From Octopus vulgaris (Eukaryota), in NCBI GenBank assembly GCA_951406725.2, contig OX597816.1:147436001-147500000 (forward strand): DNA of 64,000 bases. The letters run 5' to 3'. How positions within the stretch are numbered: the first letter of the stretch is position 1; each line of letters starts with the position of its first letter. This document shows, piece by piece, positions 7,073 through 62,256 of the stretch. Position numbers and translations under genes: made by a program. The notes beneath the pieces were generated by a model. It searched no databases, was not told the origin of the DNA, and worked only from the letters and a program-made list of their open reading frames with translations.

Positions 7073-8262
7073 GCACACATATTTGCGTACGTACATAAAA
7101 CATTGTATATTTAGGGATATTACTCATAATGCTTGTATTTGTTTACAGAAAATATAAAGCGTTACCTCAACTCTTATTGTTGATGTTCACAGGCAGTGGT
7201 TCAGATCATGACATTTGCATCGAAATTTAAATTCTTAATTTTACTATTTGACATCTTTAAACAAATAAACACTCAGCAATCACTGACATTCATTTAATAT
7301 ATGTTGTATTTTGGGTTTAAAGAATTTAAAATTTTGTTCCGTAATAGCAATTGAGATAAAGATAGTCTTCGTTTCTCCAATATTTTTTTCTTTTCTTTCT
7401 CAGTAACAAATACAAAGTTTATTTTTAATTCTTAAATGATATCTACCGATGACAGTCATTTTGCTGTATATCAATAATGAAAATTAAAACTCCATTTCAA
7501 TCTTACCATACGAGATTAGTTGTCTGTTAATTTTGTTTGTAAAACAATGTATAATATTCTACATAAAACAAGGAAAATAATTATTGTCCTACATGTGTTT
7601 TTATTACAAGTACGATTAATCCTCGATGCCTCTTATTTGAGACAGTGTATGCAATAAAATACTAATCCGATTCTTTTCATTACGATTATTATTAATCTTA
7701 GAGTAAAGTCTGAATATTTCTCTTAAGAATAAATATAAATGGTTGTCTTTTTTTAAAATTTCAATCAGAAATATGAGCAACCGTTACCTTTATTGACTGA
7801 TAAACTGAAACATATACTAAACACCTCCTATATTACATAATAATGTATTAAACTTCATGAATTTCAGAAAGCTTTGAATAAATATAATGAAATAAAAGGA
7901 AGTCATCTTGAGACATTTGGCCCAATCTAGCAATACTTTTCCACACACAGAAAATGTGTGTGTGTGTGTTTGTATGTGCGTATATATGTGTGTGAATGTA
8001 TTTTTGCGTGTATGTATATATTTATGTATGTACATACAGGAAACTGAAAGTTGTAAACTTCAGGACTCTAGCTGTTACATTGAACATATTAGTACAACAA
8101 TCCTTCCTCGTCTACTTGGCTGACCATATAGTGAAAAGGAGTTACCGCAAATCAAAATTATATATATATAATTGTATATTGTATATATTGTGAGTGTGGG
8201 ATTTGTTTCAGAGTGTATGCATATTATTTTGGGATATATAAATGTCTATATCTATCTATATA

Positions 8263-8466
8263 TGTTTGTTCCTTCTCGAGCTATGCCTGGCTCATAGGGC
8301 CGGTATCCCGGTTTCCGTGACGTATAGGTTCCCCACTTGGACAGGATACCGATCCATCGCAGGTGAGCTGCAAGATGCAGGAGGAAAGACAGAGAGAAAG
8401 TTGTGGCGAAAGAGTCAGCAGAAGTTCGCCATTACCTTCTGCCGGAGCCGAGTGGAGCTTAGGTGC
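8263..8466 (-). mobile_element. SINE/LINE-tail-like interspersed repeat related to family A tail type 2
   Basis: ggctcatagggccggtatcccggtttcc resembles ggcttatgaggacggtttcccggatttt at ~5448-5475; GC-rich block between microsatellites. Confidence 0.5.
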
Positions 8467-11399: not shown

Positions 11400-12540
11400 A
11401 AGGTCTCTATTAAAAATGAAAAAAGCCCATGATTGAGATAATATTTATTCGTTAACATGATTTCCATTACTTTCTAGAACTTCATTCCATCTGTCAACAA
11501 ACTTATGATGCGTAAGATGAATCCAACTCATTTTCAACTTCTTTTCTTGATATCAATCTAACACCATTCAAATGGTTCTGTAGTCCCCGAAACAAGTAAT
11601 AATCAGAAGGAGCAAGGTCCGGAGAATTAGGACGATGAAGCAATATTTCCTAACCAAGCTTTTCCAAGAGATCTTTCGTCAGTCGTGCTGTGTGAGGTCG
11701 ATCATTATGAAGCTGAAAGATGACACTCTTTCTTTTGAATAAGCAGGATCACTCCATTCAAAGCATCTTTCAGTCAATGAAGATGATCACTGCAGAGATT
11801 AGCAGTAACTATTTGATTGATGTTTAACTGTTCGTAATGGACAATTGCTTCAATATCTCACCATACACTCAACATGATCTACCTTGGATGAAGTACTCCT
11901 CTTGGTTGTTGAAAAAAGTCTTCCTCCTCGACCGATCCAAGAACGGCGGCGTTTAACGATATGGTAAAGGATTCACTTCTCATCACGTGTAACAAGCCTT
12001 TCTAAAAATGGTTCTTTAATGTGTCGTGAAACCAATTGACAACAGACAACGGACCACATACTGTTGCAGATTCTCTGCAGACAGCTCGTGTGGGACCCAT
12101 TTTCCAAACACTAAAACATTTCCGGTCCTTTTCAGTTGGCGTAGAACTTTTGTATGGGCTACGTTAAACTTTTCAGCAAATTCTTTACAATTAGTGGTTG
12201 GATTTTCTGTGACATCTTCCAACTTATCGGAATCAAGTTGTTTTTGAAAGACTTTCTTTTTGGCTCAACTTTCAAACTCAAATCCCCACTTCTGAAGTGA
12301 TAAAACCATCTCCGGCCACTTATTTCACTCACTGCATCATCACCATAAACTCTCTGAAGTCTACTTGCATTGACACCTTTATCAAACTCAGAGTAGAACT
12401 TGTCTAATATGATCTTTAGACGGGGTGAACATGGGTGCGAATATAGCAGAAGATTATGGCCAATACAATCAGAATCTGAATGAAAAATGTATAAATTACT
12501 CATTGTGACATTCTTAAAACATTGCAAGAGGCGCAATTTA
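11400..12540 (-). pseudogene. Mariner (D,D34D-type) transposase, decayed
   Basis: Minus-strand motifs: YGDDAVSEISGRRWFYHFRSGDLSL (HTH), KWVPHELS, LVTRDEK, HNDRPHTARLT, SPDLAPSDYYLF; many stops and frameshifts. Confidence 0.9.
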
Positions 12541-12914
12541 AAAAAAATACTATCTAAATCTGTTACGCATCGTAGATCTCCAGGCGTGCAGGTATTTCAT
12601 TGAGCAACTGTTTCCCTGCTTTATGAGATCTAGTTGTCTTTCTTCAGGCGATATGTAAATAATGTCTCCATAAGCTCCAAATCTCGGCTTTAAGAGCATC
12701 CTCTCTGTCTGTGGTGGCCTGAATTTATTAGTAGCCACTGAGTTTATCAAGGTGATTTTCTGCAGTAGGACCGTTGGCAAACTGCTTTGAATATGTAGAT
12801 GTAGTGGGATGGTGATTCTGCAACTGTTAAAGTAGTTGCCGTTTAAATGGATTAGCATCTGATTTCTTCGTACTGATTAATTTTGTACTGATTTCTTTGT
12901 AATTAATCCGATGG

Positions 12915-13240
12915 CACTGCTAGGCACTATAAGGTTATGACAGCTAACGATTTCAAGGGAAGATACTCCCAGCATATGCACTCGTTCAGATCCAGGGACA
13001 GAGAGAACTTTACTTCCTTGCCTCATTTTCTCTGGAGACTCCATGATCTCCGAGATGAAATATCCAACATCAAGTGGACTATTTTAGACAGAGCACCACC
13101 ATATTCCCCCGGTGCCCCCAACTGCCAGCTCTACCTCCGCGAAAAACTGCATATCCTCAAACAACTCGCAGTATCCATCAATAAGAAATATGATTTATTG
13201 CATTGCTGTTATCAGATATGCCCTTTTCGCAAATTTCAGG
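12915..13240 (+). mobile_element. Penelope-like element, C-terminal GIY-YIG endonuclease fragment
   Basis: TANDFKGRYSQHMHSFR...TSLPHFLWRL...IKWTIL...PPYSPGAPNCQLYLREKLHIL...SINKKYDL fits the 'FK.R...H..SF / W.I / C.LCL.EK..I / LN' pattern of invertebrate PLE endonucleases. Confidence 0.8.
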
Positions 13241-14220
13241 CCTTTGATTGCCGACAACCCAGATATATGCCACCTCAACACCAGTTGCTACTCTGCACCG
13301 CCTTCACCAAGGTCACCGCTACCAACCAACTCCATGTGCAGGACCACCATTTACCAATCCCCAACGTTCACCAACAGCCAACACATACCAATCCCCAACC
13401 CAGACCAATTTCCAACACTTACTAATTCCCAACGCCTACTTACCGCGTGTATACTCGCGCATGCGCGCGTGCACATGCACTTGTGCACGCGCATGCGAAT
13501 GCACCCGCACACTGGTACGTATGTGCACATGCATGCGAATATAAATATGTACATATGAATGTACATATTTATACGCATGTGTGTATGCGTGTATGTGTCT
13601 GCTTGTATGCGTATGTGTGTGTATGTGTATGCGTATGTGTGTGCATGTGTGTGCGTGTGCGCGCGTGCGTATCGTCTTGGCGTGTATGCGTGAGTGTGTG
13701 TGAGTGTGTGCAGACTTGCGCGTGCGCGCCCATTTACTGGCACGCACACTCGCATCAATATACACATGCACGTCTACATACCCACATATAGAACTATACA
13801 CTTGCATATGTCGCCCCTTCCTACTTCCCCCAACAACCTGACAGATTTCTAAACGCTACGTGGTCTATTTCATGTCTTCCATGCGGGTAATTTCATGTTC
13901 GTCTTACGGTATTTTCCAACTAACTGTAACCCATAGACTAGCATCAAACCACGACACCGCGTGACCTTCCTAGACTAATCGCAGCCCAGCTTACGATAGT
14001 AACACTCAGCCTCTGTCATTCGAATTCATAATGGCTGACGACTAGCATCACACTTGAAACTCAAGAATACCAACGAATTTGAATCAAAATGTTTTGAACC
14101 ATAAATGTAACTCCCAATAAATTGGTACAGTGCTCTTCTTTCATTTCTCCACTCACTCGTATATACGCGTGTGTGTATGTATGTGTGTGTGTCTGTGTGT
14201 GTATGTATACACACACATAG

Positions 14221-21737: not shown

Positions 21738-22875
<1,138 letters not shown>

Positions 22876-32935: not shown

Positions 32936-34249
32936 TGTGTGTGTGTGCGTATTAAAGATAAGTACAGAAAACGTAACTGTCTTTTTAAGCTTAGCACATA
33001 TTCACGTGTTTTAGTGAATCGACTAGCATCATTACGCTTAGCAATTAGCCAAAACACGTTATACAATCGACTACCCTTCTTCGCATTCTCACTGAAAGCA
33101 CAAATCTTGCCCCTGTACATTCCAGCTCTGCAAATTACGTGCAGTATATTTAAGTACACGGACTAAATAATAAAAAGAATCAGAAATAGCACACTTGTGT
33201 TAACAGAAGATAGATGGTTAATATAAGATAATGAGATAACTTCGCTCCCCCCACCCCCGTAAATATTCCGCCAGACATACACATATTCCCACACTCTCTG
33301 AACAGAACACGTATTAACACAGTATATTCGGGGTAGAGGAAATAAATACCATCAGAGCGATGTACTATCAACGATGACAGTAACGACAGTAACAATAATA
33401 ATAGCAACTATAGTACGAACAGTCAGTGGCATATATCATGAAGGAAACTAAGACAACAGGTCGGTCTCTATATTAGATTTATGCATTCAGATAAAGTGAC
33501 AGATATATAGGCTGCTATATAAGTAGAGATAAATAATTTTGGTATTTGTTATATCATCACCATACATTTACTCTTTGAATAAATACACTGCCTGCTCAAG
33601 GAAAAGCAAGTGGAAATTCTAAAGTTACATTGCCAGGATGGGAATCCAGAGTTCACATGTCCATTAGTGAATCTACTAGAGGTAAAGTTTGTTGGGATGC
33701 CGCTCCGGTTGTTATGTTCTTGGGTGTCGGTTCCAGAGATGTTCCCGATATTTCGCCTAATATTATGGCTGTTCTTACCGTTCTATGCCTCATTTGAGCA
33801 GACAATCAGATGTGCATAACTATAGTTGCAATTTCCTTTTGTGGTGCTCCCAGAATAGTTCGTCTTACCATAGTTGGTGCCCACATCACATTTAGCAAGC
33901 TTTTTCGTACTGGCCAGGTTCGGTGTGGTGGATTAAGACACTATGATTATTTCCCTGTTCAAAATACTATGGGACATATACTGCATGATAACGGCTCTCT
34001 CGAGGATGTACGAAAAAATCGTTAAAACAATGGTCTTTCATGGTATGTGAAAATGGTGGGGTGAACCATATTAATATCTATTAATGAAACGGCTTGTCAG
34101 GCGTCAACGTTATCGTCCCATAATAACGCGGTTTGAGCTTAAGGATCAATCTCTCACATTGATTGGAAATTTGCCACCATCCCTCCTATATCCCTATCTC
34201 GATATCTATCTTTCTCTCTCTTTCTATGTTTCTCTCTCTCCTTCTCTCT

Positions 34250-34252
34250 ATG

Positions 34253-34286
<34 letters not shown>

Positions 34287-34640
34287 TAAAATATATACAT
34301 ATACATATATATATATATAAAATATATACATATACATATATATATATATAAAATATATACATATACATATATATATATATAATATATACATATACATATA
34401 TATATATATATAAAATATATACATATACATATATATATATATAAAATATATACATATATATATATAAAATATATACATATACACATATATATATATATAA
34501 TATATACATATACATATATATAAAATATATACATATACATATATATAAAATATATACATATACATATATATGTATATATATAAAATATATACATATACAT
34601 ATATATATATATAAAATATATACATATACATATATATATA
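34250..34640. repeat. AT minisatellite, unit AAAATATATACATATACA(TA)n, left flank of LINE
   Basis: About 12 visible units; the same unit resumes at 41711. Confidence 0.92.
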
Positions 34641-34652
34641 CAAGATGGCGCC
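34641..34652 (+). promoter_or_regulatory. YY1-like motif (CAAGATGGCG) at the LINE 5' terminus, candidate internal promoter element
   Basis: Matches the YY1 consensus AAGATGGCG; YY1 sites are known at the 5' end of L1 elements; lies exactly at the element boundary. Confidence 0.5.
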
Positions 34653-36375
34653 GAACTAACAACAAGTGTGTTAACGTGTCTCTCCTAAATATTAAAGAAG
34701 TCCTTCCAGAGATCGATGTTATCAGAAGCGAAATTGTCTGCAAAGCGAATATAAGTGTGAGTAAAAGTCACTGTATTTGAGAAGAATATTTTCGCTTTTG
34801 ATATAGTATTTGCAACTAGAACATACTCGCGAATACACGTGTTAAAACGCACGTGTGTTACTTCCCGAAATCGAAGTGAATTTTATTCTTCGTCTGTGAA
34901 TCAACAAGACACAGTATTTTTGAGAAGGATATTTTCGTTTTTGATGTATATCTGCGTGTTCTGAAAAAAGCCTCTGAAAAATTTGCTGCTTAATACCAAA
35001 TTGCTTAGGAAAATACAGAAAGTATCGTCAAACTGTTGCATGTGCTAAATCGAAACTCAAATCCCTTTTGTTTACAAAATACGATTAAGGAATATAAAAG
35101 GTCTGTCTTGTCTATCTATCTTCCTTTCTTATAAAAAGGAATCACGTAAGTACTCTCTCAGCCGGTAAGGTAAGGAAGATATTATTTATTATTTATTTTG
35201 TTATCATTAGTGTTCTTTCAAACAGAAAATAATAATAAAAAAAAAAGATATAAAAATATAAAAATACGCTCTATTCTATCTTTATAATCTTGCCACACAC
35301 TCTCTCTTTCTCTTTCTTACATTTCTATTTCTATCTTTCTCATACATTTTTATTATTTGTTATCATTAGTGTTCTTTCAAACAGAAAATAATAATTAAAA
35401 AGATATAAAAATACGCGCTATTCTATCTTTATAATCTCTCCTTCTCTTTCTTACATTTCTATTTCTATCTCTCTCATACAGTTTATACCTTATCTGTCTC
35501 CCCATCCACCAGACCCTCTATTTCCGCTCTCACTCTCCCCTCCTCCCTCTCTCTCCCTCTGCCATCGTTTCTCTTTCTGCATCTCTCTCAGATCAACTTA
35601 CTCTCATCTCACCCCCTCTCTCAGTTCCTCAACTTCACTCATTCTCTCTTGTATCTATATACCGCCCTCTTTCTCTCTCTCTCTCTGTTACTCCCCCTCC
35701 CTCTCTCTGCCTCTTTCCTCTCCGCTCCTTCACAGGTCAAACCCCTTTTCCTCTTCCCCTTCTGCCCCCTTATTTCTTTCTCTACACCACCCTCCCTTTT
35801 CCTCTTCCCCTTCTGTCCCCTTATTTCTTTCTCTACACCACCCTCCCTGTCCCTTTACTACACTATGTTGCGCCCCCTCTCTCCCTCTTCCCCCTTTTTC
35901 TTCCTACCTTTCCTCTCCCTGTTCCCTCTAAGGCTCACCACCCCCTGTCTCTTTTTCCTCTCTCTGTCTCCTTCCTCCACACCACCCTCTCTGTCCCTTT
36001 ACTTCACTCCCTGGTACCTCTATCCTGCCCTCTCTCTCTCTCCCTCTCCATTTCATCTCTCTCTCTCTCTTCCTCTCCATTTTATCTCTCCGCCTTTCTT
36101 CTCCCTGCTCCCCCTAGGGTCCACCCTCTTGTCTCACTTTTCCACCCTGTCCCTTTCTACTACACCTCTATACCGCTCACTCTCCCCCTGCTGACCTGCC
36201 ATTCTTTCTCCTTTCTCTTTTTTCCCTCTTATTTTCTCTCTTTCTCTCTTCTCTCAGGACAATCCCCTCGTCTCTCTCTCTATCCCCCCCTGGCTTTTCT
36301 CCTTTCTCTTCTCCCTCTCCATCTTATCTCTCCTTCTCTATCTCTCTCTCTGTTCCTATATTTCACTAGAAGAAA

Positions 36376-39300
36376 ATGGCAAGAAACTGGTCTGCGAGAG
36401 AGGTGCAATTGTTCGTCCACGCTTGGAGGATCGCTGAGGACGACTCGCCGAACGACATTATTGCTGCGGCGCTGAAAAGCAACAATTTTTCGAGAACCAC
36501 CGCCCAGATAGAGCGAAAGAAGAGAGAAGTTATCCGTTCGTACGCTCTAATCAGGCAACATGTGGACACTCTAGACATCATCCTGAGAGGTGACGGCAGC
36601 AGGGAGGGCCAAAAGGATGAGGAAAGCATCGAGAGCCAAATGGAGAAGCCTGGAACACAGGGAAACGATGACATATGTCCAGCTTCCAACACCACAACTG
36701 AAGACCAAAGAGGTGCGATGGCCGCAAGAAAGGAAATGCACCCTGGAATTGATGGGAAGCAGGAGGTAAAGGGTGACAGAATCAAGGCTAAAGGAAGCTC
36801 TGTCCAGAGAAAGCAGAGGGACCCCAGCAAAAACTGTAAGGGCAGGGAAAGAAACACCTGCAAATTCTACCTGAGGGGGACTGCTGGTACGGCGTTGAAG
36901 GTGCAAACTGTCGCTTTGCACATCGGAGGCCCTACCAAAACCACACGGACGCGAGACAGAGGTCCCTCCCTCAGGGAGAACAAAAGCAAAAACAAAAACA
37001 AAAAGAAAAAGTTAAAAGAAGGGAAAAAAGCGCACTGACCACTACTGAAAGACGGTATGCAGATGTGGTGCGCGGAAACCCAACAGGTGGCCAGCTTCAC
37101 CCAGATGTGAGAAGGGCGGCAGCTGAACAGCAGTCTTTTTGTGCATGGCACAAAAATTGTTCAGCAGCTGACCTGGCTACAAGCACAAAGCTGGAACTAC
37201 CACCACATAAGGCCACCACAGACACCAACACACACACCACAAAAATATTTCTACTGAATGTAGGAGGGCTGCTGCGCGGAAACTGTAAAAAGAAAATTTC
37301 ATTCCTGAGAGACCTTGTGACATGCAATCAAGCTATATGCATGGCACTCGCAGAAACGCATCTTGAACCCGATATAGGTGATGCAGAAATACACATGCCG
37401 CAATATGCAGTCATACGCACAGATAGAAAAGTGAGGAGCCATGGTGGAGTTGCAATGTACATCCGAGATGACCTCACGCCCCAGGTCCTGCTGTCATATT
37501 CAAACTCAGTATGTGAAACTCAAATTGTACACATAAGACAACTGAATATCGTCATATGCACTACATATCGCCCACCAGATGCCCCAAAACACTCAGGCAT
37601 GTTTGAAGACTGCCTAACAAAAATAGGAGAAGTCCTCACCAACCTTGAACAGCACAACAGTGTATTCTTCATGGGTGACTTTAACCTCCCCAATGTGGAA
37701 TGGCCTGGGGGGCAGATGCTCCCAGGGATGACACACCATCAGCAGGCACAGGTGGAGTCCCTGCTCCATCTCACAAATACCTCTTTCATGGAGCAAATAG
37801 TTCTGCAACCAACAAGGGCAGATAATATACTGGATCTCTGCTTCACAAACAATATGGATATTATCCATAATGTTAATGTGATGCCGACAATGATCTCGGA
37901 TCACAACATAATAGAGCTGTCTATGTATGGAACAAAAGCCCCCGCAGACACACAGCCTATACGAAGCACCCACCATCTCTCCAACTTAAACTTTCATAAA
38001 GCCAACTGGAAGTCGATTGAGAAAGAGATCCTCAAACAGGATTGGCCTGAATGTCTCTCCACACCGGACATAAACATGAAACACAAACACTTCATGTCCA
38101 TAATACAAGACATATGTGACAAATATGTCCCAATGTGCAGGGCCAGCACACACAAGAACAAAAACAGGAAAATCCCTAGAGAAAGGAGGATTCTTATGAG
38201 ACGACGGACAAGGACAGAATCAAACCGCCTGAGCAAGCACACCAAAAGTGGTGAGAAGTCTCAGCTCGAAAAATGCTAAGGGAAACTGAGAAAAGTCTAC
38301 CTCAGTCCCATGAGGGGGAGAGAGCAGATAAAGAAGCTTGGCTTTAATAGAAAATATAAAATCACCACACGGACGCGAGACAGAGGTCCCTCCCTCAGGG
38401 AGAACAAAAGCAAAACAAAAACAAAAAGAAAAAGTTAAAAGAAGGGAAAAAAGCGCACTGACCACTACTGAAAGACGGTATGCAGATGTGGTGCGCGGAA
38501 ACCCAACAGGTGGCCAGCTTCACCCAGATGTGAGAAGGGCGGCAGCTGAACAGCAGTCTTTTTGTGCATGGCACAAAAATTGTTCAGCAGCTGACCTGGC
38601 TACAAGCACAAAGCTGGAACTACCACCACATAAGGCCACCACAGACACCAACACACACACCACAAAAATATTTCTACTGAATGTAGGAGGGCTGCTGCGC
38701 GGAAACTGTAAAAAGAAAATTTCATTCCTGAGAGACCTTGTGACATGCAATCAAGCTATATGCATGGCACTCGCAGAAACGCATCTTGAACCCGATATAG
38801 GTGATGCAGAAATACACATGCCGCAATATGCAGTCATACGCACAGATAGAAAAGTGAGGAGCCATGGTGGAGTTGCAATGTACATCCGAGATGACCTCAC
38901 GCCCCAGGTCCTGCTGTCATATTCAAACTCAGTATGTGAAACTCAAATTGTACACATAAGACAACTGAATATCGTCATATGCACTACATATCGCCCACCA
39001 GATGCCCCAAAACACTCAGGCATGTTTGAAGACTGCCTAACAAAAATAGGAGAAGTCCTCACCAACCTTGAACAGCACAACAGTGTATTCTTCATGGGTG
39101 ACTTTAACCTCCCCAATGTGGAATGGCCTGGGGGGCAGATGCTCCCAGGGATGACACACCATCAGCAGGCACAGGTGGAGTCCCTGCTCCATCTCACAAA
39201 TACCTCTTTCATGGAGCAAATAGTTCTGCAACCAACAAGGGCAGATAATATACTGGATCTCTACTTCACAAACAATATGGATATTATCCATAATGTTAAT

Positions 39301-41637
39301 GTGATGCCGACAATGATCTCGGATCACAACATAATAGAGCTGTCTATGTATGGAACAAAAGCCCCCGCAGACACACAGCCTATACGAAGCACCCACCATC
39401 TCTCCAACTTAAACTTTCATAAAGCCAACTGGAAGTCGATTGAGAAAGAGATCCTCAAACAGGATTGGCCTGAATGTCTCTCCACACCGGACATAAACAT
39501 GAAACACAAACACTTCATGTCCATAATACAAGACATATGTGACAAATATGTCCCAATGTGCAGGGCCAGCACACACAAGAACAAAAACAGGATCCCTAGA
39601 GAAAGGAGGATTCTTATGAGACGACGGACAAGGATTGCAAACCGCCTGAGCAAGCACACCAAAAGTGGTGAGAAGTCTCGGCTCGAAAGAATGCTAATGG
39701 AAACTGAGAAAAGTCTACCTCAGTCCCATGAAAAGGAGAGAGCAGATAAAGAAGCTTGGGTAATAGAAAATATAAAATCAAACCCTAAAGCTTTCTTTAA
39801 GTTTGCCAAAGAGACAGCCACAGTGCACCAGAGAATAGGACCTCTCTTCCAAAAAGATGGCTCTCTCACAGGAAATCCCACGTGGATAAGTGAAATACTG
39901 AACGAACAGTTCCAAAGTGTGTTCACTACACCTCTAGGACACACGCAAGTAAACAACCCAGAAGAATTCTTTGCCACTTTACCAGCGGCCAAAGAGACAA
40001 AAATTGAGTACATCAACATCGAAGAAGATGATATCACATTAGCCATTGATGAGATTGACACAAACTCAGCTGCTGGACCTGATGGATTCCCAGCGATCCT
40101 TCTCAAATCGTGCAAACGAGCCCTTGCAAAAACCGCTACAGCTTCTTTTTCAGAGCTTTCTTGCAAGTGGTAAGCTCCCAGTCAAATTGAAAGAGGGGGT
40201 AATATGCCCTATCCATAAGGGAGGTAGCAGAGCAGATGCTAAAAAATATAGGCCTATCTCTCTGACCTCACACATCAGCAAAGTCATGGAACGAATAGTC
40301 CGTAAGAAACTAATCATGTTCCTTGAGGAAAATGACTTACTGTCTGACACCCAGCATGGATTTCGACCAGGTAGAGGCTGCCTAACACAGCTCCTGCAAC
40401 ACTATGACTGGGTGTTGAAACAGCTACTAATTGGCTCAAATGTGGATGTAATATATCTCGACTTTGCAAAAGCCTTTGATAAAGTCGACCATGGTATGAT
40501 CTGTCACAAACTGCGTGGTCTCGGCATAGGCGGGAAACTTGGAGAGTGGCTGCACAACTTCCTAAAAGACAGAAAACAGGCAGTTGTGAGCAATGGAGCC
40601 ACCTCCAGGAAACGCAAATAACAAGCGGTGTCCCACAGGGCACTGTCTTGGGGCCACTGATGTTCATAGTGGCCCTTTCAGACATGCCTTCAGTTGCTAC
40701 GATGACCACCCTTGCTAGCTATGCAGATGACACAAAAGTCTCCCACGCAATACAAAACCCTGAAAATATTGCGCATCTGCAACATGAGCTGGACACAATA
40801 TACAGGTGGGCTGAGGACAACAACATGCAGTTTAATGCAGGTAAGTTCCAGGCCCTGCGCTACTGGCACACAAAGGTAAATGACGTGAAGACTGGATACA
40901 CTGGCCCAGGAAGAATTGCAATCCCTGAGTCAAAATCAGTGCGTGACCTGGGCATTGACATGAGCAATGATGCATCTTTCCAAATGCATATTGCTAATCT
41001 GGTGATAAAATGCAGACGGCTAGCTGGATGGATTCTCCGAACTTTCAGAACAAGAGAGAAGGAGACACTGATGGTCCTGATGGAAAACATTTGTCCTCAG
41101 CCGCTTGGACTACTGCTCCCAACTTTGGTCACCACACAATATAAAACAAACAGCAGAACTCGAAGCAACTCAGAGAAGCTACACAAAGAAAATCGTCTCA
41201 ATGCAAAATGTCAGCTACTGGGAAAGACTGAAGGTATTAAACCTCTTCTCCCTGGAGCGGAGGCGGGAGAGATATGCAGTGATATACATCTGGAAAATCC
41301 TGGAGGGTCTTGTCCCAAACTTTGGCATTCAAAGTTACTCCAACCGCAGAACGGGCGCCGCTGCGTGGTGCCAAGGATTCCAACATCACCATCAAAATAC
41401 AGGTCCAGATACTGCAACAGCTTGGGTTTCAGAGGACCACAGCTCTTTAACATCCTCCCTAAATGCCTGAGAGACTTACATGGTGTGGATGTGGGTTTCT
41501 TTAAAACTAAACTGGATCTCTTCTTGTTGGGAGTCCCAGATGAACCTACCTCACGACAGGAGACACGGATGCGGGCAGCAGCATCGAAATCCCTTGTTGA
41601 TCAAGTGCCACGTATCAGAGGTGGATTCACAAACTAG
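36376..41637 (+). CDS. LINE polyprotein: Myb/SANT-like + CCCH zinc finger + APE endonuclease + reverse transcriptase (as assembled: 5 single-base indels and one internal duplication)
   Basis: NWSAREVQLFVHAW...IAAAL...RTTAQIERK; CKFYLRG.CWYGVEGANCRFAH; APE motifs LAETHL, YRPP, MGDFNLP, ILDL, SDHN; RT motifs YRPISLTS, QHGFR, YLDFAKAFDKVDH, SGVPQGTVLGP, YADD; stop TAG at 41635-41637. Confidence 0.88.
36941..39780 (+). repeat. Tandem duplication of ~1.42 kb inside the LINE (36941-38364 / 38365-39780)
   Basis: Both copies run ccacacggacgcgaga...gaaaatataaaatca and are nearly identical; differences cluster at 38160-38345. Confidence 0.95.
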
Positions 41638-41710
41638 TGTAGCTCATTCGGCGGTGGTGCCCCAGCATGGCCGCGGCCTTCGGCCTAAAACATTTTTAAG
41701 GATTTAAGGA

Positions 41711-42223
<513 letters not shown>

Positions 42224-60190: not shown

Positions 60191-60191
<1 letters not shown>

Positions 60192-62256
60192 AACTTAGAT
60201 AAACTTAGATATGTTTCGACCAAAGATTGGTCCAGGCCATGTCTAACTTAATAGCACCACCTGATAGGATTATTCGAATCCTGTTTAAGTCAAGTTTTGT
60301 TTAAGTCAAGTTTTGTTCAAGTAGTGAGTTCTTGTTGGGTGAGTTGTATCCAGTTTTGTTCAAGTAGTGAGTTCTTGTTGGGTGAGTTGTATCCAATTAT
60401 GGGTGGCTTATCTGGTATTCTTTGAAGGAATCTATCCAGACTCTGTTTAAAGTTGATGGGATCCTTTTCCTTTTTGATCTCCCTCGGGACAATGTTAAAT
60501 AGGGCAGGGTCTGTTGAGGAAAAGAAATTATGTTGCAGTGTACATGTATGTTGTGATCTTGAATTTGGCAGGGGACGTATAGCCCGTGGTCCAAGTCTTG
60601 GATGAACCTTGAAGTTAATGTTTAGGTCGTTTGGGCAAAGTTGACGGTATATTTTCCACATCGTACAAATGATGTACCGCTCACGGCGACGCTGGAGGGA
60701 GTAAAGTTTCAAGGCTTCAAGGCGATCCCAATAATCGAGAGCAGCCATGCCTTCAATTTGTTTAGTGAGAGCCCTCTGGGGTGACTCAATTCTGGAGATG
60801 TTTTGTCTTGTGTGAGGAGACCACAGTGGGCAGCAGTATTCAAGGTGTGGCCGTACAAAGGAGGAAAAAAGTGGTATGATGACACCTTGTTCTCTGGACC
60901 GGAAAGTTCTTAAGATCCAGGAACTCATCCTACGAGCTATATCGACCTTCTTGTTGATGTGTGCACTCCAACTGAGATCGTCATCAACAATTACACCCAG
61001 GTCTCTGATATTGTTAGAGGCTGTGAGCGGTTCCCCTGAAGGAAGAGAGTATGGTTGTTTTAGTGAGGAATTTCTTCCAAAATGCATCAGCTCAAATTTT
61101 CCCTCATTCAGTTGCATTTTGTTTCTGTCTGCCCATTGACTCACAGCATATAGATCAGACTGGAGTTGAGTTCGGTCTGCTTCTTCAGTGATGATTTGCT
61201 GGAGCTTAGTGTCATCAGCGAATATTTTCACTTTGCAGTAATGTACGACACTGGAAAGGTCGTTTACGTAAATTATGAAGAGTAGCGGACCCAAAACAGT
61301 TCCCTGGGGAACACCGCTGGTGACTTTTGCTGGGTTTGAGTGGACTCCATCAACTACAACATGATGTGTTCTATTCGCCAGGAAATACTTAATTCAGTGT
61401 AGAACTTTTCCACGGATTCCAACATTTGCCAATTTTGAGAGTAGGATGTTATGGTCTACTCTGTCGAACGCTTTACTGAAGTCAAGATATATGACGTCAG
61501 AGTTCGAACCTGTTCCCAAGGCTTTGAGTACATCTTCAATGTGGTGTAAGAGCTGTGTTAGACAGTCCCTGCCACAACGAAAGCCATGCTGATTTGAATT
61601 TAGGAGTTTGTGGGTCTCCAGGAAGTCAGCTATCCTTGATCTTAACACTCTTTCAAACACTTTAATGATGTGGGAGGTGAGTGAGATTGGGCGATAGTTG
61701 ACTGCGAGGGATCTGTTTCCCTGTTTGAAAACCGGGATGACCGACTGGGATAGAAACTGTTTCGGTATATAACCTGCGTCTAACGAATTTCTCCACAGGT
61801 TGGTCAGAGGGACTGCAAGTTGATATCTACATTCCTTCAGGAGACTAGCGGGAAATCTATCAGGGCCTACAGCAGAGTAATGTTTGACCTCATTTATTGC
61901 TGCTACGATGTCGGTGGCAGTGAAGGTTATGTCTGAGATTTTGTGTTGGGAGTCAACTTCGTTCGTTTCCCTCACGTCAATATTAGTGGGAACACTGAAG
62001 ACAGAGCAGTATTGTTTCTGCAGTATTTCTGCCATTTCTTTAGCATCGTGTTGGGGAATGCCGTTATCATCAATCAATGGCCCAATGGGTGAGACAGTGG
62101 TTCTATGCTTATTTGCATAAGAATAGAACACTTTTGGGTTCTGTTTGATGTTTTTGATTACCCATTGTTCCTCCACAGCTCTTTGATTTTCAATGGAGGT
62201 TTTCATGTTAGTCTGCAGATGAAGTTTTTCCAGCTCTAGTCTTTTCATTGTTGTTG
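60191..62256 (-). mobile_element. 5'-truncated CR1-group (Zenon-like) LINE, second family; RT pseudogene
   Basis: NYRPISLTS, QHGFR, YLDFSKAFDRVDH, GVPQG, FADD, WILRTF, LQRRRERY; one in-frame TGA at 61394-61396; 3' stem-loop and (atctaagttt)2 tail next to (TA)n. Confidence 0.92.

What the first reader, a model, noticed from the sequence alone, without database searches (positions are those of the whole stretch)
36376..37260. Single-ORF APE LINE with an N-terminal trihelix Myb/SANT-like domain and CCCH finger fused to the endonuclease
Seen: adding one base in the G-run at ~36874-36879 changes 'CKFYLRGTAG' into CKFYLRG.CWYGVEGANCRFAH (C-x6-C-x8-C-x3-H). That frame then runs with no stop through ...QKQKQKEKVKRREKSALTTTERRYADVVRG into APE, so the apparent ORF1 and ORF2 are one ORF of ~1280 aa once the duplication is collapsed. 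The first ~60 aa (W.....LF..AW...IA..L....RT..QI..K......Y) fit the Myb_DNA-bind_4/trihelix pattern. Known: N-terminal zinc finger + Myb modules are the target-DNA-binding unit of R2-type (RLE) elements, whereas CR1-group APE LINEs normally have a separate ORF1. Inference: this family may have independently gained a DNA-binding module, plus an RNA-binding CCCH, that steers it to AT repeats.
Basis: partly seen in the sequence, partly recalled or inferred. Interest (0 to 1): 0.75.

Follow-up and report, generated by a model that had tools for sequence, protein, structure and literature searches.

The report
Trihelix-ORF1 LINEs homing to TA repeats
This is a damaged copy of a two-gene octopus jumping element, not a single fused gene; its small first protein starts with a predicted Myb-like DNA-binding module, and the four octopus families carrying that module mostly sit in TA repeats while a related family without it does not, so the module may help choose the landing site (untested).

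Summary
The single-ORF claim is wrong; the domain claims hold. The window holds a full-length CR1-clade LINE (34641-41711) whose copy has private lesions. All 39 other genomic copies examined keep a separate ORF2 start codon, which this copy has lost in a 30-bp deletion. The family layout is ORF1 (298-302 aa) overlapping ORF2 (1003 aa) by 55 nt in another frame. Short-read contigs and a sister family agree. The missing G is real (24 of 39 copies have six G), so ORF1 reads trihelix, CCCH, C-terminal helix. The trihelix is a divergent Myb/SANT-like domain (PF13837: below cut-off here, above it in relatives; three-helix model with MYB/SANT/GT-1 top hits). Related elements carry PHD plus three CCCH fingers instead. 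The trihelix occurs on two separate RT lineages in this genome (AU p=5e-5). Four trihelix families are TA-flanked (29/32, 9/13, 25/26, 15/29); the PHD family is not (1/19). This is a correlation with one control family, and the endonuclease is an equally possible cause. My literature searches found no such ORF1 type. Verdict: new ORF1 variant of a known clade, with a testable targeting lead.

The parts
34641..41711 (+). Full-length CR1-clade LINE (family A), broken copy with an internal duplication
   Evidence: 5' end CAAGATGGCG shared by full-length copies and 3' tail shared by copies; block alignment to copy L046
34641..36375 (+). 5' UTR, about 1.7 kb, with a long CT-rich part
   Evidence: Shared with other copies
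36376..37257 (+). ORF1 (298-302 aa in intact copies); frameshifted several times in this copy
   Evidence: 10 of 39 copies read from the ATG to ...KYFY stop; L046 ORF list
36382..36588 (+). Trihelix, Myb/SANT-like domain (aa 3-71)
   Evidence: PF13837 E 5e-4; model with helices 7-20, 25-35, 42-71, pLDDT 83; top folds MYB RAD, SANT, GT-1
36859..36923 (+). Single CCCH finger, interrupted here by the five-G run at 36875-36879
37036..37038 (+). Premature stop reached only in five-G copies; not the family's ORF1 stop
37136..37221 (+). Private lesions (T-run -1, A-run -1, 30-bp deletion that removes the ORF2 ATG), which fuse the two frames
37255..37257 (+). Family ORF1 stop codon (TGA), inside the start of ORF2
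37218..41637 (+). ORF2: APE endonuclease and reverse transcriptase (1003 aa in intact copies); start lost, duplicated and frameshifted here
   Evidence: Pfam Exo_endo_phos_2 and RVT_1
36940..39776 (+). Tandem duplication of about 1.42 kb, junction at 38363/38364; both halves carry the same three lesions
41693..41711 (+). 3' tail of short TTTAAGGA repeats
34249..34640 (.). 5' flank: compound TA microsatellite, same higher-order unit as the 3' flank
41710..41997 (.). 3' flank: compound TA microsatellite

Best explanation
This is a broken copy of a young two-ORF CR1-clade LINE whose separate ORF1 protein carries a predicted Myb/SANT-like trihelix in place of the PHD finger of its relatives, and that trihelix likely tethers the element to TA-repeat DNA. 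Shown: two overlapping ORFs; ORF1 order trihelix, linker, one CCCH, conserved C-terminal helix; TA-repeat flanks in the trihelix families; trihelix on two RT lineages. Inferred from what is known of LINE ORF1 proteins: ORF1p packages the element's RNA through the CCCH finger and basic linker and oligomerises through the C-terminal helix; ORF2p is made from its own ATG 55 nt before the ORF1 stop and does the nicking and reverse transcription. Inferred and untested: the trihelix, with its basic third helix, binds AT-rich double-stranded DNA and raises the share of insertions in TA microsatellites. The module was gained twice, or moved between co-resident families by recombination.
For: Two ORFs: ORF2 ATG in 39 of 39 copies; contigs of four studies put back the T and A (4 of 4), the G (3 of 4) and show the ATG-bearing insert (4 of 4); sister family B ends ...YFY stop with an ORF2 ATG in another frame in 11 of 12 copies; none of the 120 listed ORF2 homologues carries the N-terminal domain. 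Trihelix: 7 of 23 homologues hit PF13837, best 29.3 bits, over the cut-off; family D 28.3 bits, over the cut-off, 31% identical to family A, E 1e-12; top structural hits are MYB/SANT/trihelix. PHD-type cysteine pattern plus triple CCCH in relatives. 3' flank with TA content of at least 0.5: A 29/32, B 9/13, C (PHD) 1/19; D 15/29, E 25/26; background 7.5% of window 50-mers. D against C p=0.001. A, C, D and E are of similar age, 0.4-0.8% divergence. RT tree puts D with PHD-type elements; AU test rejects one clade for trihelix bearers, p=5e-5.
Against: There is only one PHD control family, and A, B and E share an ancestor and similar endonucleases (60-68% identity), so there are at most two independent contrasts. 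Family A's domain is below the Pfam cut-off, no Foldseek hit reaches E 0.001 and the best Z is 7.2, which the tool calls middling. A profile search of PDB sequences found no Myb protein. The third-helix Trp and Asn of typical trihelix domains (recalled) are replaced. D's preference is weaker (about half). Targeting in APE-type elements is usually credited to the endonuclease (recalled). The tree is a quick search, the AU test was run after I had seen it, and four rows in the tested group have unknown ORF1.
Confidence: 0.45

Rival explanations
1. Same two-ORF element with a real trihelix, but TA preference comes from the ORF2 endonuclease. The trihelix serves protein or chromatin contacts (SANT-like), nuclear retention, or binding to the element's own long 5' UTR.
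For: Endonucleases differ between all families (A against C 39%, A against D 35%), so they could carry the preference. SANT domains rank among the top folds. PMC13708176 (passage) credits Myb-based site recognition to RLE elements. PMC13343379 (passage) notes low ORF1 dependence in some CR1/L2 elements.
Against: It needs TA preference to arise separately in the two RT lineages that happen to share the trihelix. The domain is net basic (12 K/R against 9 D/E).
Confidence: 0.35
2. The TA flanks reflect retention or priming, not active targeting: insertions survive in gene-poor microsatellites, or the RNA tail primes on TA nicks.
For: The genome is very TA-rich; distal flanks of family A copies are twice the window background (15.6% against 7.5%). 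Tails differ between families.
Against: Family C is equally young and sits at background level, 1/19. TA also flanks 5' ends, 12 of 15 full-length copies, and several truncated copies. Four different tails all give TA flanks.
Confidence: 0.12
3. The N-terminal three-helix domain is not of Myb/SANT descent; the match is to a common small fold.
For: No Foldseek E under 0.001, Z 7.2 at best; the PDB profile search was blank.
Against: Homologues pass Pfam's curated cut-off, and Myb/SANT/trihelix chains fill the top of both structure lists.
Confidence: 0.06
4. One reading: the active family is a single ORF with Myb and CCCH fused to the endonuclease.
For: 2 of 39 copies read through into APE, and 3 of 39 have an in-frame junction spacing.
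Against: 36 of 39 junctions are out of frame, read-throughs use different indels, short-read contigs and families B and E keep a separate ORF1, and the C-terminal helix is conserved only in the ORF1 frame.
Confidence: 0.02

Closest known systems
O.sinensis_14_LINE, CR1 clade (Martelossi et al. 2023, PMC10294476; passages, section 9, supplement passages)
   Same: RT stretch shown in their alignment matches this family's RT letter for letter by eye; classed Jockey superfamily, CR1 clade, 183 members.
   Different: They classified by RT; ORF1 occurs once in the main text. I saw no ORF1 domain or target-site description in the passages read, and did not read most supplements.
CR1/L2 ORF1 types I-V (Metcalfe and Casane 2014, PMC4120745; section 6, passages, part of supplement 1)
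   Same: Separate modular ORF1; PHD proposed there as a general genome-targeting module; domain shuffling and ORF1 transfer between lineages.
   Different: No Myb, SANT or CCCH in the text (0 occurrences each); this ORF1 fits none of the listed types except the unclassified type V.
PHD plus triple-CCCH CR1 elements (octopus family C; metagenome loci L090, L093, L095, L096)
   Same: Same RT sub-lineage (support 100), CCCH finger, 'SFL' C-terminal helix, two ORFs.
   Different: PHD-type pattern instead of trihelix; three fingers instead of one; family C is not TA-flanked.
R2-type (RLE) elements with N-terminal zinc finger and Myb (PMC13708176, passage)
   Same: Myb-like and zinc-finger modules in a non-LTR element with a target preference.
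   Different: R2 has them on the single catalytic protein with a restriction-like endonuclease. Here they sit on a separate ORF1, the finger is CCCH and the endonuclease is APE.
TRAS/SART telomeric R1-clade elements (recalled; papers not held)
   Same: APE elements that target short repeats; a Myb-like region in TRAS ORF2 and a role of ORF1 in SART1 localisation are recalled.
   Different: Different clade; the recalled Myb-like region lies in ORF2, not ORF1. Not checked here.

Membership tests
CR1 clade (Jockey superfamily) LINE | RT groups with CR1 references in a reference phylogeny | tested here: met
   Matching RT is classed CR1 in a published tree-based table. My own tree had only one named CR1 reference, from which this lineage is separated by a long stem.
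CR1 clade (Jockey superfamily) LINE | ORF2 with N-terminal APE endonuclease followed by RT | tested here: met
   Pfam; 1003-aa ORF2 in intact copies
CR1 clade (Jockey superfamily) LINE | Separate ORF1 and a 3' tail of short tandem repeats | tested here: met
CR1-Zenon | No ORF1 and a poly-A tail (PMC13343379, passage) | tested here: not met
   ORF1 present; tail is TTTAAGGA repeats
Proto2 clade | RT similar to Proto2 references | tested here: not met
   Proto2 reference RTs differ at the main motifs on inspection; matching RT classed CR1
R2-type single-ORF architecture | One ORF with DNA-binding modules fused to the catalytic protein | tested here: not met
R2-type single-ORF architecture | C-terminal restriction-like endonuclease | tested here: not met
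   The endonuclease is an N-terminal APE
Myb/SANT-like domain PF13837 | Score above Pfam's curated cut-off | tested here: inconclusive
   Family A 20.8 bits, under 27; homologues P0040 29.3 and family D 28.3, over
Myb/SANT-like domain PF13837 | Three-helix fold with a long third helix | tested here: met
   Models; structural neighbours (moderate scores)
Myb/SANT-like domain PF13837 | Binds double-stranded DNA | not testable with these tools
   Needs EMSA or SELEX
CCCH zinc finger | C-C-C-H spacing, conserved across relatives | tested here: met
   Pfam PF00642 22.3 bits on the piece; C162, C170, C179, H183 invariant in 6 of 6 aligned proteins

The most novel reading that the evidence does not exclude
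A portable ORF1 targeting module: a trihelix DNA-binding domain replaced the PHD finger in CR1 ORF1, passed between two distant RT lineages in octopus, and each time redirected an APE-type LINE to TA microsatellites. Target choice would then be set in trans by ORF1p, not by the endonuclease.
Probability: 0.3. Interest if true: 0.78.

Novelty: new variant of a known kind. Interest (0 to 1): 0.5.

Why it matters
What non-L1 ORF1 modules do is an open question; the PHD has only been proposed as a targeting aid. This genome holds young, near-intact families of one CR1 sub-lineage that differ in the ORF1 N-terminal module and in target preference. That gives a ready domain-swap test of whether ORF1 can steer insertion. 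If it does, an ORF1-borne DNA reader would be a separable way to retarget APE elements, and would help explain how CR1 elements pile into the TA microsatellites of a 2.8-Gb octopus genome. If not, it remains an ORF1 type that my searches did not find described.

Tried and rejected
Proto2 membership, suggested by a recalled ORF1 motif: rejected. Search for longer, fused forms with alignment A1 (651-2000 aa): none, weak evidence by the tool's own note. PDB sequence search with A1: no Myb hit, only weak S8 and SPT16 rows. Protein atlas: not available for either query. Expression: no RNA holder listed. Duplication junction at 38364: no listed contig piece bridged it in 4 runs; contigs continue into the normal ORF2, so real locus event against assembly artefact is open. 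Target-site duplications: not resolvable inside TA repeats, and none seen by eye in the two non-TA full-length copies. Family D was chosen as a second control without trihelix but proved to carry it. All 20 further loci fetched as possible controls appeared to be D-type (19 with the domain), so C is the only control. 5' ends of family B were not found. Literature searches without a report of a Myb or trihelix LINE ORF1; Repbase and Dfam could not be searched. The octopus brain LINE RTE-2_OV (PMC9115989, passages) is a different, single-ORF RTE element. Earlier scan notes: nothing on this family. No complex prediction was run.

Full report
Setting. The window lies in a 2.8-Gb animal genome; homologue names point to Octopus vulgaris. 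The finding is the start of a LINE running from 34641 to 41711, flanked on both sides by the same compound TA microsatellite. A search with the ORF1 DNA returned 802 candidates, of which 40 were scored. I fetched all 39 other copies at about 10 kb each.

The G-run. The window has five G at 36875-36879. Of 39 other copies, 24 have six bases there, 11 five, 1 seven, and 3 were not scored. With six, the N-terminal domain and a CCCH finger are in one frame. The finger scores 22.3 bits on Pfam zf-CCCH as a 40-aa piece, and its four ligands are invariant in six aligned relatives.

The single ORF is an artefact of this copy. Between the finger and the endonuclease the window lacks one T, one A and a 30-bp stretch relative to other copies. 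The net loss of 32 nt brings ORF2 into the ORF1 frame. The lost 30 bp contain the ORF2 ATG, which 39 of 39 other copies keep. The junction spacing is out of frame in 36 of 39; ORF1 ends at ...KYFY stop after 298-302 aa in 10 of 39; only 2 of 39 read through into APE, by different indels. Copies L036 and L046 hold both a 300-302-aa ORF1 and a 1003-aa ORF2, overlapping by 55 nt. Short-read contigs from four studies restore the T and A in 4 of 4 runs and the G in 3 of 4; the ATG-bearing insert appears in all four as an insertion, joint or loose end. A divergent sister family (B, 42% ORF1 identity) also ends in YFY stop, with an ORF2 ATG in another frame in 11 of 12 copies. Family E ends its ORF1 separately too. 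None of the 120 listed ORF2 homologues carries the N-terminal domain or a CCCH pattern in its first 400 aa. The 1.42-kb duplication is unique to this copy, and both halves share the three lesions.

The N-terminal domain. Residues 3-62 hit PF13837 at E 5e-4, below the cut-off. Seven of 23 aligned homologues hit it, one above the cut-off. The model has three helices with a long third helix, pLDDT 83. Foldseek ranks the RAD MYB domain first (probability 0.99, E 0.36) with GT-1 at 0.93. The wide structural search gives RAD MYB, DNAJC2 SANT and GT-1 at Z 7.0-7.2. These scores are moderate, and a PDB profile search was blank. Taken with the relatives that pass Pfam's cut-off, a divergent trihelix is the best reading. 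DNA binding is inferred, not shown.

Clade. An RT stretch matching this family appears as O.sinensis_14_LINE in the alignment of PMC10294476 (supplement passages), classed there as CR1 clade. It is not Proto2 and lacks the Zenon features given in PMC13343379 (passage). In my RT tree of 95 rows (75 of 80 metagenome loci long enough, 19 proteins, family A) it lies in a 40-row lineage with support 100 and a long stem. Six members of that lineage with upstream sequence have a separate ORF1 with the triple-CCCH motif and an 'FL' helix; four reach far enough upstream to show a PHD-type cysteine pattern, read by eye in three of them. Octopus family C has the same PHD-type layout and no trihelix. So the CCCH is inherited, and the trihelix stands where relatives have a PHD.

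Two lineages. A second CR1 fragment in the window (about 60191-62245, minus strand) belongs to family D. D's ORF1 has the same trihelix (PF13837 28.3 bits, over the cut-off; 31% identity to A) followed by four or more CCCH-type fingers. D's RT is 44% identical to A's and groups with PHD-type L090 (support 95), not with A, B and E (42 rows, quick search). An AU test rejects a single clade for trihelix bearers, p=5e-5. The test was run after the tree was seen, and four rows in the group have unknown ORF1. Since outgroup CR1 ORF1s also carry PHD patterns, two gains or one transfer is the simpler history.

Target preference. I scored the 50 nt after the 3' tail for TA/AT steps of at least 0.5. Trihelix families: A 29 of 32 scorable (40 copies), B 9 of 13 (20 fetched), E 25 of 26 (30 fetched), D 15 of 29 (30 fetched; two tails were cut imperfectly). 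PHD family C: 1 of 19 (20 fetched). Background is 7.5% in the window and 15.6% in distal flanks of A copies. By a second measure, a TA run of 8 or more near the junction, the counts are A 27/32, B 10/13, E 20/26, D 20/29, C 4/19. Full-length A copies have TA at the 5' side in 12 of 15, so the repeats are target, not tail. A, C, D and E are all under 1% diverged; B is 6%. Copies were the best-scoring hits, not a random sample.

Mechanism. Most likely ORF1p is a separate RNA-packaging protein whose N-terminal module tethers the particle to the genome, and the trihelix version biases it to TA repeats. The two-ORF layout and domain content are well supported (about 0.9). The targeting role is a correlation with one control family and two independent lineages, and the endonuclease is a strong rival. 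PMC4120745 (passage) proposes the PHD as a general targeting aid; PMC4640811 (passages) lists Tx1 and R1 as the target-specific APE clades and does not name CR1.

Novelty. The family's RT is catalogued. A Myb/SANT or CCCH ORF1 is absent from the text of PMC4120745 and PMC13343379, and my searches found no report. Repbase, Dfam, subscription journals and most supplements of PMC10294476 were not seen and may hold a description. A Myb-like region in TRAS ORF2 is recalled, not checked. Verdict: the headline fusion is false; what remains is a new ORF1 variant of CR1 with a testable targeting lead.

Noticed in passing
window 60191-62245 (-): 5'-truncated CR1 copy of family D, tail of ATCTAAGTTT-type repeats followed by a TA run; the family's ORF1 has the trihelix plus four or more CCCH-type fingers.
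   Followed up: yes
L006, L027, L028, L029, L030 (ORF1 start at 1501 after orientation): Five copies share both the five-G run and one substitution in the trihelix (D27E), which suggests a sub-lineage that spread with an ORF1 cut before the CCCH finger; those fetched in full are TA-flanked. Some may be assembly duplicates.
   Followed up: no
L186: about 8086-8400 (oriented), and L318: 3' ends of family A lie inside or just behind copies of families B and D, suggesting nesting at shared TA sites.
   Followed up: no
L046:3849-6860: ORF2 keeps the full 1003-aa length but has a compensated frameshift near the C-terminus; seven other long copies do not.
   Followed up: partly
L327-L331: Five strong PF13837 hits in the genome without CCCH or APE nearby: host genes or DNA-transposon proteins, possible donors of the domain.
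   Followed up: no
window 35300-36375: The 5' UTR contains about 1 kb of CT-rich sequence with short internal repeats, conserved across copies.
   Followed up: no
window 12907-13425 (+): A 172-aa open frame resembling a Penelope-type GIY-YIG endonuclease end (recalled resemblance).
   Followed up: no
window 12159-12596 (-) and about 22380-22790: Degenerate fragments resembling mariner-type transposase (recalled resemblance).
   Followed up: no
protein P0005: An annotated octopus adhesion-GPCR isoform contains about 50 aa nearly identical to this family's ORF1 linker: exonised LINE sequence or a gene-model error.
   Followed up: no
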